This document shows positions 9,009 to 28,721 of a stretch of 64,000 nucleotides of DNA, in pieces. Origin of the DNA: Candidatus Iainarchaeum sp. (GTDB taxonomy: Archaea > Iainarchaeota > Iainarchaeia > Iainarchaeales > JAFCCW01); assembly GCA_017609985.1 (NCBI GenBank), contig JAFCCW010000013.1:36429-100428 (forward strand), written 5' to 3'. A program made the translations under genes and the position numbers. The notes under the pieces are model-generated. The model searched no databases. It was not told the origin of the DNA and was given only the letters and a program-made list of their open reading frames with translations. Positions within the stretch are counted from its first letter, which is position 1, and each line of letters begins with the position of its first letter.

Positions 9009-9812
9009 ATGTTTGAGAGCTTTGGGCGAAGTTGGAATCTTATGAAACAGAGCTTTTCAGTTCTCAAGAAAGATAAAGAACTCATTGCTTTTCCTATTCT
9101 CTCCGGAGTCTTTGCAGCAATAGTTATTGTTTCTTTTTTGATTCCTATTTTTGTTGTTGAATCGCTTTTTGATTCTCCCATTATCTATGTTTTGCTCTTG
9201 CTCATGTACATTGTTTTGTACTTCTTTGTTGTATTTTTCAATGCAGCTCTTGTCGGAGCAGCAATGATTAGGATGGGCGGGCAGGACCCAACACTGGGAG
9301 ATGGTTTAAACATCGCGTTTTCAAACATCAAAAATATTTTTCTCTGGGCTGTTGTTGCAGGAACAGTCGGACTTGTCCTGCGTATGCTTGCAAGCCAAAG
9401 CAAGAAAAATTTCATCGCAAGCATATTGGTTTCAATTATTGGGGCTGCTTGGACTCTCTTAACTTACTTTGTTGTTCCGACAATTGTGGTTGAGGGAGTT
9501 GGTCCATTGAAGGCAATCAGGAAATCCAAGCAAATCATTTTTGAAAAATGGAGGGAAACAATCCTTGGAGGAATTGGATTTGGATGGATTCAGGCAATCT
9601 TCTCAATTATAGCAATCATCTTATTTTTTATAGTGTTTTTATTTCTCCCATTTTTAGCAATTCCGGCAGCAATTATTTTACTTCTTGCAGTTGTCTTTAT
9701 AGGTCTTGTTTTTTCAGCTCTTGCGGGAGTGTTCTCTGCAGCAGTCTACTATGCATCTGTAACTGGAGAAAATCCTGATGGAATTGATCTTTCGGTTCTA
9801 AAGAAAAGCTGA
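9009..9812 (+). CDS. Membrane protein, DUF6159-like
   Basis: SFSVLKKDKELIAFP, FFNAALV, YFVVPTIVVEG..AIRKS..KWRE pattern. Confidence 0.75.
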   Translation: MFESFGRSWNLMKQSFSVLKKDKELIAFPILSGVFAAIVIVSFLIPIFVVESLFDSPIIYVLLLLMYIVLYFFVVFFNAALVGAAMIRMGGQDPTLGDGLNIAFSNIKNIFLWAVVAGTVGLVLRMLASQSKKNFIASILVSIIGAAWTLLTYFVVPTIVVEGVGPLKAIRKSKQIIFEKWRETILGGIGFGWIQAIFSIIAIILFFIVFLFLPFLAIPAAIILLLAVVFIGLVFSALAGVFSAAVYYASVTGENPDGIDLSVLKKS

Positions 9813-10974: not shown

Positions 10975-11000
10975 AAAAGATTTTTGAAAGAGAAAAAAAG

Positions 11001-11062
11001 CTATTAGCACGCCGTTACGCCCGGCGTGTGCGTAACCTATACTCCTTTCAGTTGTATAGCTT
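11001..11062 (-). ncRNA. Putative structured small RNA, copy 1 (unknown family)
   Basis: AAGCUAUAC-AACUGAAAGGA-GUAUAGGUU-A-CGC-A-CACGCCG-GGCGUAA-CGGCGUG-CUAAUAG then C and U7; aligns with 27272-27332. Confidence 0.65.
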
Positions 11063-11082
11063 TGAGTAAGATAAAAAAAAGC

Positions 11083-11199
11083 GATTAGCAGCTTCTGGTA
11101 GGCTACACGTAAAACGCACTGCCAAGCCAATCCCTACAGGGCTTAACTTCCGGGTTCGGAATGGGACCGGGTGTTTCCCCTGCGGTATGACCGCTAATC
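11083..11199 (-). rRNA. rrf: 5S rRNA, unlinked from 16S/23S
   Basis: GAUUAGCGGUCAUACC...ACACCCGGUCCCAUUCCGAACCCGGAAGUUAAG...CUGCUAAUC; helix I pairs; followed by U8. Confidence 0.93.
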
Positions 11200-11370
11200 A
11201 GTACTAATTAGCACAGGGAGAGTTTAAAAAGCTTGCTGTTCAGCTTTAGAAAAACGAAGGAGCTGTCCCAAACAGGTCATTTATAAGTTTCAATAATGCA
11301 ATTACAACAATTGCAAATATTACCCCCTAAAAACATTTTTTTCCATGTTTATCCTATCATTTGTTAAAAA

Positions 11371-11988
11371 TCACTTCTTCTTGCCTGTTTTTGCAGCAAC
11401 TTTTTTCTTTGCAGTCTTCTTTGCTTTTGTTTTTTTCTTTTTCTTCTGCTTTGGAGCTGTCTTTTTGATTAGCTCTGCTGCCTTTTTCAGTCCCTTTCTC
11501 AATAAGTCTTCTCTCTTTGCACCTGCGCAAATCATTTTTCCGTTCTTGAACAAGAGCAGGGTAAGCTTTGGGTCTGCTATTCTCAGGATTGCTCCTGGAA
11601 ACTGTTCTGGCTCATACTCTACGTTGTCTAAGCTGAGTGCTGTCTGAAATAAGTCAAGTGTCATGTTAAGGTTTGCTGTTGCAACAAGATTCACTACGTT
11701 GTAGGAAACTTTTCTCTGCACTTTAACATCGGGTTGGATGTCGTGAATCAGCTTGCTTGCTTTTCTAATTCCTTGTTCTATTTCTTTTTCACTGCTTGCT
11801 CCGGAACAGATTACTTTTCCGTTCTTGAACAACAGCATTGAAACCTTTGGTTCCTTTAATTTCAGAATTGCTCCTGGAAACTGCTCTGGTTCATATTCGA
11901 TGGTTGGAATAGTAATAGCCAGATTATACAAATCAAGAGTAGCTTTTAAGTCAGCTGACGCAACTAGATTAACAATAGTATACTTCAT
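11371..11988 (-). CDS. tbp: TATA-box binding protein with Lys-rich C-terminal tail
   Basis: Two repeats of VNLVA...EYEPEQFPGAIL...LLFKNGK; start taken at MKYTIVN after a GGGGGT SD. Confidence 0.96.
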   Translation of the reverse strand: MKYTIVNLVASADLKATLDLYNLAITIPTIEYEPEQFPGAILKLKEPKVSMLLFKNGKVICSGASSEKEIEQGIRKASKLIHDIQPDVKVQRKVSYNVVNLVATANLNMTLDLFQTALSLDNVEYEPEQFPGAILRIADPKLTLLLFKNGKMICAGAKREDLLRKGLKKAAELIKKTAPKQKKKKKTKAKKTAKKKVAAKTGKKK

Positions 11989-27079: not shown

Positions 27080-27256
27080 ATGATGCTGGACATTGGAAAA
27101 TTTCTTTCTGACTCAAAGCGAGTACTCCTTATTGCTCGAAAACCAGGTTGGGATGAATTCAAGACAATGGCAAAAATAACAGGATTGGGAATAATTGTCA
27201 TTGGAGCAATTGGATTCTTTGTGCTTCTTTTCTTCACGCTGATTGGCTTGAAGTAG
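27080..27256 (+). CDS. secE: Protein translocase subunit SecE/Sec61-gamma (58 aa)
   Basis: Hand translation: RVLLIARKPGWDEFKTMAKITGLGIIVIGAIGFF; ftsZ-secE-spt5 synteny. Confidence 0.93.
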   Translation: MMLDIGKFLSDSKRVLLIARKPGWDEFKTMAKITGLGIIVIGAIGFFVLLFFTLIGLK

Positions 27257-27271
27257 TTTTTTTTCAGGAAC

Positions 27272-27332
27272 AGCCCATGCGACTGAAAGGAGTGTGGGCT
27301 ACTTGCCAGCCGAAAGCCACGGCTTAGGATAG
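27272..27332 (+). ncRNA. Putative structured small RNA, copy 2 (unknown family)
   Basis: AGCCCAUGC-GACUGAAAGGA-GUGUGGGCU-A-CUU-G-CCAGCCG-AAAGCCA-CGGCUUA-GGAUAG then U6. Confidence 0.65.
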
Positions 27333-27394
27333 TTTTTTAATGCTTTATGAAGTCAATTAGTTTACTAATTTCTCCTTTTTGGGGCTGAATTAAA

Positions 27395-27838
27395 ATGATT
27401 TTTCCGGTGAGAACAACAGTTGGGCAGGAAAGCCTTGTGGTAGATATAATTAGCAGTAAGATAAAGGCAGAAGGCCTTAACATTTACTCTATTGCTGTTA
27501 TTCCGGGTCTAAGGGGCTATATGCTCATTGAAGCAGACAATGAAATGACTGTAAGACGTGCAATGACTAATACTCCTCACATTAAGGGCAGGGGTGTTGT
27601 TGGCGGAGGCGAGGTTAAAATTTCCGAGCTTGATTCACTGCTTGAAGCAAAGCCTTTGATGAAGAGCATTAAAGAGGGTCAGAAAGTTCAGCTTATAAGC
27701 GGTCCTTTCAAGAACGAGAAAGCAAAGGTGCTGAGAATTAATGCGCCAAAAGAAGAAGTTACTGTTGAACTGCTTGAAGCAGCTGTAAAGATTCCTGTCA
27801 CTATAAAGGCAGAGCATATCAGGATTTTGAAGGAATAG
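27395..27838 (+). CDS. spt5: Transcription elongation factor Spt5/NusG
   Basis: VRTTVGQE, LRGYMLIE, KOW motif ISGPFK, IPVTI. Confidence 0.94.
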   Translation: MIFPVRTTVGQESLVVDIISSKIKAEGLNIYSIAVIPGLRGYMLIEADNEMTVRRAMTNTPHIKGRGVVGGGEVKISELDSLLEAKPLMKSIKEGQKVQLISGPFKNEKAKVLRINAPKEEVTVELLEAAVKIPVTIKAEHIRILKE

Positions 27839-27863: not shown

Positions 27864-28721
27864 ATGCCTGAGATAAGCGTTTTGGTTGAAGGAGGCAAGG
27901 CTTCTGCTGGTGCTCCGCTTGGTCCAGCTCTTGGTCCTCTTGGAGTAAACATTGGAGAAATTGTCAATTCAATTAATGAAAAAACAAAGAATTACAATGG
28001 AATGAAGGTTCCAGTAAAAGTTATTGTTGACTCTGGAACAAAAGAGTTTGACATAAAGGTTGGTTCTCCCCCTGCTTCAGCACTTATTAAGCAAGAGTTA
28101 GGAATTGACAAAGCAGCTCAAAATCCAAAAACAGAGGTTGTTGGAAACTTGTCAATGGATCAGGTTGTGAAGATTGCTAAAATGAAAATGGATGACCTTG
28201 CATCCTCTGAAATAAGAAGTGCTGCAAGGGAAATCATTGGCGCCTGCAATAGCATGGGCGTTACAGTTGACGGAAAAAAAGCAAAAATTGTCCAGGGCTT
28301 AATTGTTGCTGGAAAATATGATTCTGTTCTCGGTGGACCTGTTGTTTCAGATTCTTCTCCTGTTCAGAATGCTATTGCAGAGCAAAAGGCAGAGGAAAAA
28401 GTGAAAGAAGAAGAAGTGAAAACAGAAGAAAAAGAGCAAAAAGAGCAAACCCCTGCTGTTGACACAGAAGCTGATGAAAAAGCAGAGGCTCTTGCGGAAG
28501 GGCCTGTTGAATCTTCAGAATCTAATATTGAACAGGAAGCAGAGGCTTTGATGGAAGAAAAATCTGCTGAACCTGCTGTTGTTGAAGAAGCAAAGCAGAA
28601 TATTGAACAGTTAAAAGAGATTGTTGAAGACAATAGTCAAGACAAATCTGAAGAACAGAAAGAGCAGACTAAAGCAGGAGAAAACAAGGCTAGTGAAGAG
28701 AAAAAGCCTAAACCCGAATAA
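27864..28721 (+). CDS. rpl11: Ribosomal protein uL11 with long acidic C-terminal extension
   Basis: GGKASAGAPLGPALGPLG, GMKVPV, IIGACNSMG; roughly 125 extra Glu-rich residues. Confidence 0.94.
   Translation: MPEISVLVEGGKASAGAPLGPALGPLGVNIGEIVNSINEKTKNYNGMKVPVKVIVDSGTKEFDIKVGSPPASALIKQELGIDKAAQNPKTEVVGNLSMDQVVKIAKMKMDDLASSEIRSAAREIIGACNSMGVTVDGKKAKIVQGLIVAGKYDSVLGGPVVSDSSPVQNAIAEQKAEEKVKEEEVKTEEKEQKEQTPAVDTEADEKAEALAEGPVESSESNIEQEAEALMEEKSAEPAVVEEAKQNIEQLKEIVEDNSQDKSEEQKEQTKAGENKASEEKKPKPE

What the first reader, a model, noticed from the sequence alone, without database searches (positions are those of the whole stretch)
11001..11062. Candidate new ncRNA motif, copy 1 (behind 5S rRNA): hairpin plus covarying pseudoknot
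Seen: this minus-strand element aligns without gaps over about 50 nt to 27272-27332. Both have a 9-position stem with different sequence but retained pairing (one G-G mismatch in this copy), closed by the loop RACUGAAAGGA. Then come A, a triplet, a purine, a stem ending GCCG/CGGC with a 7-nt loop, AUAG and a U tract. The triplet pairs with loop positions 2-4 in both copies with compensatory changes: CGC/GCG here, CUU/AAG in copy 2. Established: C-UGAAA-G is T-loop-like, and GA/GA pairs occur in L7Ae-binding K-loops. Inference: a conserved folded RNA (ribozyme, guide, processing or stability element) that I cannot match from memory to a known family.
Basis: partly seen in the sequence, partly recalled or inferred. 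Interest (0 to 1): 0.88.

Follow-up and report, generated by a model that had tools for sequence, protein, structure and literature searches.

The report
Small structured insertion element in Iainarchaeales
The hairpin-plus-pseudoknot motif is real and unknown to RNA databases, but it behaves as a small repeated insertion element of one group of tiny archaea, which lands at the ends of busy genes here and against tRNA exon borders in relatives.

Summary
Window 11062-11008 (-) and 27272-27328 (+) share a 9-bp hairpin and a compact H-type pseudoknot, and a third copy follows the thermosome gene on another contig. Rfam has no match.

A covariance model finds the family in 37 of 151 sampled genomes of the phylum. 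All 37 are in one order, whose named members are labelled Candidatus Iainarchaeum, with 1 to 30 copies each. Both stems and the pseudoknot covary.

The family behaves like an insertion element, not a fixed gene:
- A congener has an empty, single-copy site.
- Position is not conserved (1 of 29 loci).
- Copies lie in both orientations.
- In relatives, the pseudoknot end abuts tRNA exon borders in 17 of 66 copies, six of them inside tRNA introns.

Y1 transposase, reverse transcriptase and IS1634 do not track copy number. The way it moves is unknown, and no RNA data exist.

The parts
11083..11198 (-). 5S rRNA gene, the target of insertion copy 1
   Evidence: Rfam RF00001, 78.4 bits.
11068..11090 (-). 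Target copy A of copy 1: the last 8 nt of 5S rRNA, two further nt, T8 and 5 more nt
   Evidence: Read. Matches 10988-11009 at 17 nt with 1 mismatch; about 21 of 23 by eye.
11010..11067 (-). Inserted element, copy 1 (58 nt, short form without the upstream hairpin H0)
   Evidence: R1 match at 83.6 bits. Bounded by the two target copies.
11034..11062 (-). Hairpin 1 of copy 1: 9 positions with one G-G mismatch and an 11-nt loop
   Evidence: These columns covary across the family.
11008..11032 (-). Pseudoknot module of copy 1. Triplet 11032-11030 pairs with loop bases 11020-11018. Stem 11028-11022 pairs with 11014-11008; its last two bases lie in target copy B.
10988..11009 (-).
27080..27256 (+). 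secE gene, whose stop codon and following T8 are the target of copy 2
   Evidence: Pfam PF00584, 24.5 bits.
27254..27264 (+). Target copy A of copy 2 (stop codon TAG plus T8). May extend back to 27245.
   Evidence: A 9-nt exact repeat with 27330-27338. The 18-nt version has 4 purine transitions by eye.
27265..27329 (+). Inserted element, copy 2 (short form). Hairpin 1 is 27272-27300, the triplet 27302-27304, the stem 27306-27312 with 27320-27328, and the loop 27313-27319.
   Evidence: R1 match at 80.7 bits. The 3' limit is uncertain by about 9 nt.
27330..27338 (+). Target copy B of copy 2 (TAG plus T6). With the following AA it resembles the T-rich box seen after secE in relatives.
27395..27838 (+). 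spt5 gene downstream of copy 2
   Evidence: Pfam Spt5-NGN and KOW.

Best explanation
The two window copies, and a third behind the thermosome gene, belong to a family of small (about 58-110 nt) non-coding insertion elements confined, as far as searched, to one order of DPANN archaea. Named members of that order are labelled Candidatus Iainarchaeum.

Anatomy:
- An optional 5' hairpin H0, framed by UGCGAG and CGAGC.
- Hairpin 1.
- A 3'-terminal H-type pseudoknot: a 3-bp stem between a CGY triplet and the loop, and a 5-bp GCCG/CGGC stem.

Shown:
- The fold is under selection.
- Copies are gained and lost at orthologous sites.
- Recent copies are flanked by a duplicated stretch of target, 9 to about 48 nt long.
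- The 3' end is constant.
- The 5' end is variable.
- The 3' joint overlaps the target by 1-4 GC-rich bases.

Inferred: a new copy is made from the pseudoknot end towards the 5' end and joined to the target by short homology. The copying would be by target-primed or template-switch synthesis. It would use either an RNA copy and an enzyme not identified here, or another DNA copy and the host replication machinery. The target stretch between the two joints becomes duplicated.

In this genome all three copies sit in sense just behind highly expressed genes (5S rRNA, secE, thermosome). The duplicated target puts a second T tract, or a second gene end, behind them. They would therefore be transcribed as 3' trailers, where the compact fold may also cap the RNA end. 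That last step is inferred and untested.
For: **Family and fold**
- Three copies in the genome.
- 21 of 61 genomes of the order match with model R1. 37 of 151 of the phylum sample match with R2, with 1 to 30 copies each and a patchy spread by family: for example 8 of 13, 6 of 7, 0 of 15, 0 of 17.
- Covariation in all helices, 0 of 500 shuffles reaching the observed value.

**Target duplications**
- All 3 of 3 own copies have flanking direct repeats at the element borders: 17, 15 and 9 nt by script, longer by eye.
- Across 66 distinct hits, 8 have repeats of 17 nt or more. Six remain after I dropped L047 (a tandem unit) and L052 (two paralogous tRNA genes).
- Only 3 of 400 random control sites have such repeats.

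**Gain and loss**
- The G094 copy (L077) has an approximately 48-nt duplicated gene end.
- In congener G137, 52 nt of single-copy sequence align to both repeats and the element is absent.
- G041 and G093 lack the element but keep part of the second repeat.

**Position not conserved**: 1 of 29 spt5 loci.

**Both orientations**: 9 sense and 8 antisense at tRNA borders.

**Ends, by eye on 10 repeat-flanked copies**
- The 3' limit always falls right after the CGGC strand.
- The 5' limit is at UGCGAG in 3 copies, just before hairpin 1 in 3, and further upstream in 4.

**Overlap at the 3' joint**: the modelled end overlaps the exon by 1-4 nt in 15 of 17 tRNA-border copies.
Against: - No mobilising enzyme was found. 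Y1 transposase, RVT_1 reverse transcriptase and IS1634 transposase are not found in most copy-rich genomes: G015, with 25-30 copies and 97% complete, has none of the three. The own genome has only one IS5-family transposase with unrelated ends.
- Most copies (about 54 of 66) show no flanking repeat.
- One congener comparison (G051 against G003) showed a remnant, not an empty site. Another was too diverged to read.
- G041 keeps the duplication without the element, so duplication and insertion may be separable events.
- The variable 5' end rests on 10 copies judged by eye.
- Strong, long-lasting covariation and G-U pairs (25 in hairpin 1) would also fit a cellular RNA function.
- The exact abutment on tRNA exon borders is not explained by random insertion plus selection alone.
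- There are no expression data.
Confidence: 0.6

Rival explanations
1. It is a tRNA-processing module. The pseudoknot hairpins sit flush on both sides of tRNA exons in leaders, trailers and introns. Sense and antisense copies pair with each other to zip exon ends together next to the splice or cleavage sites. The copies in this window would be strays.
For: - 17 of 66 distinct copies have an exon border within -4 to +5 nt of the pseudoknot end, and 6 of these are inside 90-194-nt introns. By my arithmetic, random placement would give about 0.1.
- Three tRNAs carry a sense copy upstream and an antisense pseudoknot downstream: L005 Ser, L052 Pro, L009 Ala. One intron (L011) has both ends.
- Co-folds of such pairs beat the sum of single folds: -70.9 against -58.4, -57.2 against -45.8, and -54.4 against -36.0 kcal/mol.
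- In L011 the paired intron ends extend the outer helix of a bulge-helix-bulge that can be drawn by eye.
- T/A-rich boxes lie upstream of leader copies.
Against: - None of the three copies in this genome is near a tRNA, and none of its 45 predicted tRNAs carries one.
- In G015, by my comparison of coordinates, about 8 of some 27 listed copies touch a tRNA, against 35 Rfam tRNA matches.
- Most intron copies have no partner.
- Many genomes of the order have none.
- RNase P RNA is present here.
Confidence: 0.12
2. It is a cellular non-coding RNA or a cis-acting RNA element: for example a 3'-end stabiliser, protein-binding site, ribozyme or guide. It would be kept at these loci for the host's benefit.
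For: - Covariation in three helices, including a pseudoknot that only a single strand can form.
- G-U pairs are tolerated on the called strand: 25 in hairpin 1, against about 1-2 A-C positions by eye.
- All three own copies are in sense behind highly expressed genes and are followed by T tracts or a terminator-like hairpin.
- In G015, about 8 of 11 non-tRNA copies are in sense with the flanking genes, by my reading.
Against: - The position is not conserved (1 of 29).
- Antisense copies are common (8 of 17 at tRNAs; about 3 of 11).
- Sense copies lie inside tRNA introns, which excludes a terminator role there.
- There are target duplications and an empty site.
- The K-loop and T-loop-like features are not conserved.
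- The distribution is patchy.
Confidence: 0.15
3. It is an end or miniature derivative of an IS200/IS605-type transposon (PATE, REP-like, or a TnpB guide-RNA scaffold).
For: It has a sub-terminal GC-rich hairpin with a short 5' guide-like triplet, it is intergenic, and it is multi-copy. This resemblance is recalled from knowledge of the family, not shown by a call.
Against: - Y1 transposase is found in 18 of 61 genomes but not in G000, G015, G011, G018 or G031. G001 has 5 Y1 matches and no element.
- The TnpB-type domain gives only 4 matches below cut-off in the own genome.
- Long target duplications are not a feature of that family (recalled).
- The triplet pairs with the hairpin loop, not with a flanking cleavage site.
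Confidence: 0.03

Closest known systems
REP / REPIN elements of bacteria
   Same: Short GC-rich palindromic repeats in intergenic DNA, often just behind genes, in both orientations, in tens of copies. They are thought to stabilise the upstream RNA (recalled).
   Different: - No RAYT or Y1 transposase tracks it.
- It has a covarying pseudoknot and a second hairpin.
- It carries long target duplications.
- It is archaeal.
- It abuts tRNA exon borders.
SINE-like / target-primed retroposons
   Same: - Constant structured 3' end and variable 5' end.
- Target duplications of variable length (9 to about 48 nt).
- Short overlap at the 3' joint.
- Non-coding.
   Different: - Reverse transcriptase is found in only 8 of 61 genomes and in none of the copy-richest except G018.
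- It has no A-rich tail and no known internal promoter.
- No such element is known in archaea (recalled; my paper searches found none).
Related tRNA introns spread among tRNA genes of Thermoproteales (Fujishima et al. 2010, as described in a passage of PMC4090602)
   Same: One sequence family occurs in the introns of different tRNA genes. The mechanism of spread is unknown and is thought to act at the DNA level.
   Different: - Only 6 of 66 copies here are in introns. The rest are in leaders, trailers, operon spacers and gene ends.
- Copies occur in both orientations.
- It is a different phylum.
IS1549 / IS1634 insertion sequences
   Same: They make long direct repeats of variable length, 8-514 bp, by a mechanism not yet modelled (passage of PMC2266710).
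   Different: - Those are 1.5-2 kb elements with a transposase and inverted ends.
- The IS1634 transposase is over cut-off in only 2 of 61 genomes here (G001, G031) and does not track the element.
- This element has no terminal inverted repeat.
MITEs
   Same: Small, non-autonomous, multi-copy, and flanked by target duplication.
   Different: It has no terminal inverted repeats, unlike ends, and a duplication length that is not fixed.

Membership tests
Any Rfam 15 family | Covariance-model score at or above the family's gathering score | tested here: not met
   No match overlaps hairpin 1 or the pseudoknot of copies 1-3 or of a full-length relative at E up to 10. The only overlapping rows are chance-level: frnS at E 6.4, TCL6_3 at E 8.1 and mir-268 at E 7.2, each far below its gathering score.
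H-type pseudoknot | Two stems in which a loop of one hairpin pairs with a flanking strand, supported by covariation | tested here: met
   - Stem 1 pairs: C-G in 48 rows; G-C in 45 and U-A in 2; U-A in 21, C-G in 17 and other in 11.
- Stem 2 inner pair: A-U in 22, C-G in 18, U-A in 5, G-C in 2.
- Whole structure: 0 of 500 shuffles reach the observed value.
- Two copies extend stem 1 to 4 bp by a double change.
K-turn / K-loop (L7Ae site) | Tandem sheared G-A pairs beside a 3-nt bulge or loop, kept across the family | tested here: not met
   - GA/GA frame in copies 2 and 3, AA/GA in copy 1, and no 3-nt bulge.
- The inner loop positions covary as Watson-Crick pairs.
- The frame is present in 15 of 52 rows.
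- L7Ae binding was not testable.
T-loop | A five-base UGAAA-type loop motif kept across the family | tested here: not met
   UGAAA occurs in 22 of 52 distinct rows. Other rows have GAA, UUCA, GGA and similar loops. The three-dimensional fold was not testable.
IS200/IS605 derivatives (PATE, REP, TnpB guide-RNA scaffold) | A co-resident Y1 transposase or TnpB, and no long target duplication | tested here: not met
   enzymes; duplications.
MITE | Terminal inverted repeats and a target duplication of fixed short length | tested here: not met
   The 5' end (UGCGAG...) and the 3' end (...CGGC) are not complementary. The duplications range from 9 to about 48 nt.
Target-primed retroposon (SINE-like) | Constant 3' end, 5' truncation, and target duplication of variable length | tested here: met
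   Ten repeat-flanked copies read by eye; control for the repeats.
Target-primed retroposon (SINE-like) | A reverse transcriptase available in the cell | tested here: not met
   RVT_1 is found in 8 of 61 genomes. It is not found in G000, G015, G011, G034, G041 or G031. Divergent enzymes, or enzymes supplied by a host cell, are not excluded.
Archaeal bulge-helix-bulge tRNA intron | Lies between tRNA exons, with a bulge-helix-bulge at the junctions | tested here: inconclusive
   Six of 66 copies lie in ARAGORN-predicted introns at or near position 37/38. A bulge-helix-bulge could be drawn by eye for L011, L048 and L010, and only in part for L034. Most copies are not in introns.

The most novel reading that the evidence does not exclude
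This is a copy-and-paste element of a kind not described in archaea. A structured RNA (or single-stranded DNA) is copied from its pseudoknot 3' end and joined to nucleic-acid ends or GC-rich stem feet by a few bases of homology. It therefore lands at transcript ends and exactly at tRNA 5' ends, 3' ends and splice borders. In that way it creates long tRNA introns, structured leaders and trailers. It would be a live source of tRNA gene interruption in DPANN archaea, working without any known transposase.
Probability: 0.2. Interest if true: 0.9.

Novelty: new variant of a known kind. Interest (0 to 1): 0.7.

Why it matters
How archaeal tRNA genes acquire introns, and how related introns spread between tRNA genes, is an open question. 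The review passage seen says the mechanism is unknown.

Here one recognisable sequence family is found inside tRNA introns, flush against tRNA ends, and as fresh insertions with target duplications behind ordinary genes. That links intron content to a mobile element, and insertion polymorphism in it can be followed in metagenomes.

It also adds:
- a compact, well-supported pseudoknot fold to the short list of structured RNAs known from DPANN archaea;
- an example of long target duplications of variable length without a matching transposase.

For genome annotation, it warns that these hairpins are not terminators or sRNA genes by default.

Tried and rejected
**Searches that gave nothing or nothing usable**
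- Rfam at gathering and at E up to 10 on all three copies and on a full-length relative: nothing.
- Metagenome scan with a neighbouring protein, meant to find closer relatives and empty sites: 80 pattern hits, none confirmed.
- Metagenome scan with a 22-nt stretch of the 5S rRNA end: 0 matches.
- Sequencing runs: no RNA holder listed. One DNA study holds a small share, 0.10 of the words.
- Laying contigs of two of that study's runs at 80% likeness: contigs, mostly 90-96% alike, reach into copy 2. No joint skipping either element was listed, and one loose end at 10990 leads to unrelated sequence. This says nothing on empty sites.
- Viral contigs: one exact pattern match, pseudoknot part only, in a high-GC contig. 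Its triplet does not pair with the loop, so I take it as chance.
- Exact pattern scan of species genomes: 68 stretches. 27 carry archaeal labels and 6 lie in two MAGs labelled Chloroflexi/Chloroflexota. The other 35 are singles in bacterial records, which I take as chance from the pattern's GC content (my arithmetic, not a control).

**Candidate mobilising enzymes**
- Y1 transposase, reverse transcriptase and IS1634: no tracking with copy number.
- The own genome's single IS5-family transposase has unrelated ends.
- A 7.9-kb stretch between two G041 copies holds ordinary genes only.

**Other comparisons**
- Leader-trailer bulge-helix-bulge at tRNA ends: I could not draw one for L005 by eye.
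- Second and third congener comparisons: a remnant, not an empty site; too diverged to read.
- Split tRNA halves next to solitary G015 copies: no T-arm-like sequence in their flanks by eye.
- Supplementary files of papers were not opened.

Full report
**What is in the window**

On the minus strand, the 5S rRNA gene (11083-11198; Rfam, 78.4 bits) is followed by a T8 run. After it comes a hairpin of nine positions with one G-G mismatch and an 11-nt loop (11062-11034). Next are one A, the triplet CGC, one A, and a GC-rich stem with a 7-nt loop whose positions 2-4 are GCG.

On the plus strand the same architecture sits between secE (27080-27256) and spt5 (27395-27838). It has a different stem sequence and the pair CUU/AAG. 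A motif search of the whole 1.16-Mb assembly found a third copy directly behind the stop codon of the thermosome gene on contig C27.

A covariance model built on the three copies finds exactly these three in the genome, as does a loose regular expression. The three fold better than shuffles, with z-scores of -3.45, -2.18 and -3.82.

**Not a known RNA family**

Rfam 15 gives only the 5S rRNA and one tRNA in the window. No match overlaps hairpin 1 or the pseudoknot at E up to 10, for the three copies or for a full-length relative. The few overlapping rows are chance-level and far below their gathering scores.

**Relatives**

Model R1 matches 21 of 61 genomes of the same order at E up to 1. Copy numbers are high in some: G015 has 25, G011 has 13, G034 has 10, G018 has 9.

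A second model, built from 54 matches, finds the family in 37 of 151 genomes sampled over the phylum. All 37 are in the same order. The spread by family is patchy: 8 of 13, 6 of 7, 5 of 25, 0 of 15, 0 of 12 and 0 of 17, and 0 of 11 in the five families numbered f33-f37.

An exact scan of one genome per species for the pseudoknot consensus returned 68 stretches:
- 27 are in records labelled archaeon. Ten of these are labelled Candidatus Iainarchaeum and one Thaumarchaeota.
- Six are in two MAGs labelled Chloroflexi/Chloroflexota.
- The other 35 are singles in bacterial records, which I take as chance.

Candidatus Iainarchaeum belongs to Iainarchaeales, Iainarchaeota. That this group is counted among the DPANN archaea is my recall.

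**The fold is under selection**

The figures come from 52 distinct homologs:
- 86.1% of cells form standard pairs, against 67.3% in shuffles. None of 500 shuffles reaches any of the five measures. Sliding the partners gives at most 48.9% paired.
- Hairpin 1 has double changes at eight of its nine modelled pairs.
- The second stem is really five pairs, and its outermost variable pair reads A-U 22, C-G 18, U-A 5, G-C 2.
- The pseudoknot was not modelled as pairs, so the alignment is not fitted to it. Its three pairs read C-G 48; G-C 45 and U-A 2; U-A 21, C-G 17 and other 11.

Most of the 'other' rows are a variant in which UCG pairs with CGA one step over. Two copies turn the flanking A and G into G and C, which gives a fourth pair.

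The geometry is that of a classical compact H-type pseudoknot: a 3-bp stem, a 1-3-nt first loop, a 5-bp stem and a 2-3-nt last loop. This is inferred from the lengths.

The rows are related to one another, and many come from the same genome. The shuffle counts are therefore not probabilities.

- UGAAA occurs in 22 of 52 rows and the GA frame in 15 of 52.
- Elsewhere plain pairs or short loops take their place.

Many relatives carry a further small hairpin upstream (H0), framed by UGCGAG and CGAGC. Only copy 3 keeps a trace of it here.

**Insertion signatures in this genome**

Re-reading the flanks shows that each copy lies between two imperfect copies of host sequence.
- Copy 1: the last bases of the 5S rRNA, the T run and five more bases (11090-11068) recur at 11009-10988. 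The script finds 17 nt with one mismatch; by eye it is about 21 of 23.
- Copy 3: the last 15 nt of the thermosome reading frame, including the stop, recur behind the element with one mismatch.
- Copy 2: the secE stop codon plus T run recurs as TAG plus T6. This is 9 nt exact. An 18-nt version has four purine transitions and is less sure, because part of it also serves as the 3' strand of the second stem.

At 400 random control sites in the same loci, repeats of 14 nt or more occur in 17, and repeats of 17 nt or more in 3, with none above 18.

**Insertion signatures in relatives**

Among 66 distinct hits, 8 have flanking repeats of 17 nt or more at the element borders. Six remain after I dropped a tandem duplication of the whole unit (L047) and a pair of paralogous tRNA genes (L052).

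Read by eye, the repeats cover gene ends:
- about 48 nt of a reading frame with its stop (L077);
- 23 nt of the 3' end of tRNA-Gly (L019);
- a T-tract region of 25 nt (L015);
- a stop codon region of 23 nt (L007).

In these ten repeat-flanked copies:
- The 3' limit of the insert is always just after the CGGC strand.
- The 5' limit is at UGCGAG in three, a few bases before hairpin 1 in three (including window copies 1 and 2), and further upstream in four.

**Gain and loss between congeners**

The flanks of L077 (genome G094) were searched in three genomes of the same genus.
- In G137, 52 nt of single-copy sequence align to both repeats of G094, and the element is missing.
- G041 and G093 also lack the element but retain part of the second repeat.

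G137 may be the state before insertion, or a clean loss by recombination between the repeats. The other two look like loss of the element alone. Either way, the site is polymorphic within a genus.

Two further comparisons were not clean. G003 keeps a remnant of the 5' half, and the third was too diverged to read.

At the orthologous secE-spt5 spacer, only 1 of 29 relatives' loci has a credible element. The spacers there typically start with a T-rich box directly after secE, which the second target copy recreates in this genome.

**tRNA exon borders**

ARAGORN, with introns allowed, was set against the model matches. In 17 of 66 distinct copies a tRNA exon border lies within -4 to +5 nt of the modelled pseudoknot end. 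In 15 of these the last one to four modelled bases are the first bases of the exon.
- Nine are in sense. Six lie directly upstream of the tRNA 5' end. Three lie inside long introns, butting on the 3' exon.
- Eight are antisense. Five butt on the tRNA 3' end and three on the end of the 5' exon inside introns.

The geometry is always the same: the element lies outside the exon, with its pseudoknot end pointing at it.

With roughly a hundred exon borders per megabase, random placement would give about 0.1 such case in 66. This is my arithmetic.

ARAGORN's naming of long-intron tRNAs is unstable: L010 was called Thr and Asp.

Three tRNAs have modules on both sides and one intron has them at both ends. 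Such pairs co-fold better than they fold alone.

In G015, by my comparison of coordinates, about 8 of some 27 listed copies touch a tRNA, against 35 Rfam tRNA matches. The rest lie in short spacers: between the two genes upstream of the L2-like ORF and that ORF, or behind genes. About eight are in sense and three antisense, by my reading.

One G034 copy lies between TBP and the 5S rRNA, on the other side of the 5S gene from the copy here.

**What moves it**

No candidate emerged.
- Y1 transposase (18 of 61 genomes), reverse transcriptase (8 of 61) and IS1634 transposase (4 of 61, two over cut-off) do not follow copy number. G015 has none of the three.
- This genome has no TnpB-type domain over cut-off. 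It has one IS5-family transposase with unrelated ends next to the RNase P RNA gene, and three integrases.
- The genes between two neighbouring G041 copies are ordinary.

**Reading**

The best-supported account is a small non-autonomous insertion element whose conserved hairpin-pseudoknot is its functional end.

Five features together are what target-primed or template-switch copying from the 3' end produces:
- the constant 3' end;
- the variable 5' end;
- the variable-length duplications;
- the short GC overlap at the 3' joint;
- both orientations.

GC-rich feet of tRNA stems in an AT-rich genome (38.8% GC) would be the best short matches for the GC-rich 3' end. All of this is inference. The missing enzyme, the duplication without an element in G041, and the precision at splice borders remain unexplained.

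A cellular role is not excluded and may coexist with the insertion account, either in pre-tRNA handling in relatives or in capping 3' trailers here. No RNA data could be found.

**Literature**

Four full-text searches found no description of this motif or of such an element in this phylum. They combined DPANN or Iainarchaeota terms with tRNA intron, bulge-helix-bulge, MITE, target site duplication and transposition. I saw listings and abstract starts only.

I read passages of two papers:
- PMC4090602, on related introns in different tRNA genes of Thermoproteales and the unknown mechanism of their spread.
- PMC2266710, on IS1549 and IS1634 making direct repeats of 8-514 bp.

Supplements were not seen.

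Noticed in passing
L010, L011, L005, L017, L037, L048 and others (loci of relatives): tRNA genes of several genomes of the order carry very long predicted introns (71-194 nt) at or near position 37/38. ARAGORN without the intron option missed them.
   Followed up: partly
L024-type flanks: L034, L042, L043, L005, L010, L048, L077, L117 upstream of hairpin 1: There is an extra upstream hairpin H0 framed by UGCGAG and CGAGC. Read as tandem G-A pairs, the frame repeats the theme of the hairpin-1 loop. It marks the 5' end of full-length units.
   Followed up: partly
L199 about 2070-2250 (G041) and L201 about 1730-1960 (G093): At the site that is filled in G094, these congeners keep part of the second target copy without the element. 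This is a possible excision footprint.
   Followed up: partly
G000:C37:7476-8843 and 9254-9673 (L165, L053): A single IS5-family transposase gene (455 aa; NF033579 at 138.3 bits against a cut-off of 140) lies about 400 nt from the RNase P RNA gene.
   Followed up: partly
window 11239-11375: One contig of a related organism in a public DNA run replaces 135 nt of the spacer between TBP and the 5S rRNA with 17 other letters (tables 5 and 5c).
   Followed up: no
G023:C20, G042:C16, G043:C46, G058:C109 (rows): In four genomes the spt5 match comes in two pieces, about residues 1-76 and 64-147, separated by 12-45 nt within one open frame of 164-169 aa. This suggests a short insertion in the gene.
   Followed up: no
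L047 1001-1165 (G018:C5): Two identical units 107 nt apart, each with its own upstream hairpin and the same 24-nt flank. This is a tandem duplication of the whole unit, next to a tRNA-Pro gene.
   Followed up: no
window 27864-28721: The L11 protein (285 aa) carries a long acidic, Glu/Lys-rich C-terminal extension of about 150 residues beyond the two L11 domains.
   Followed up: no
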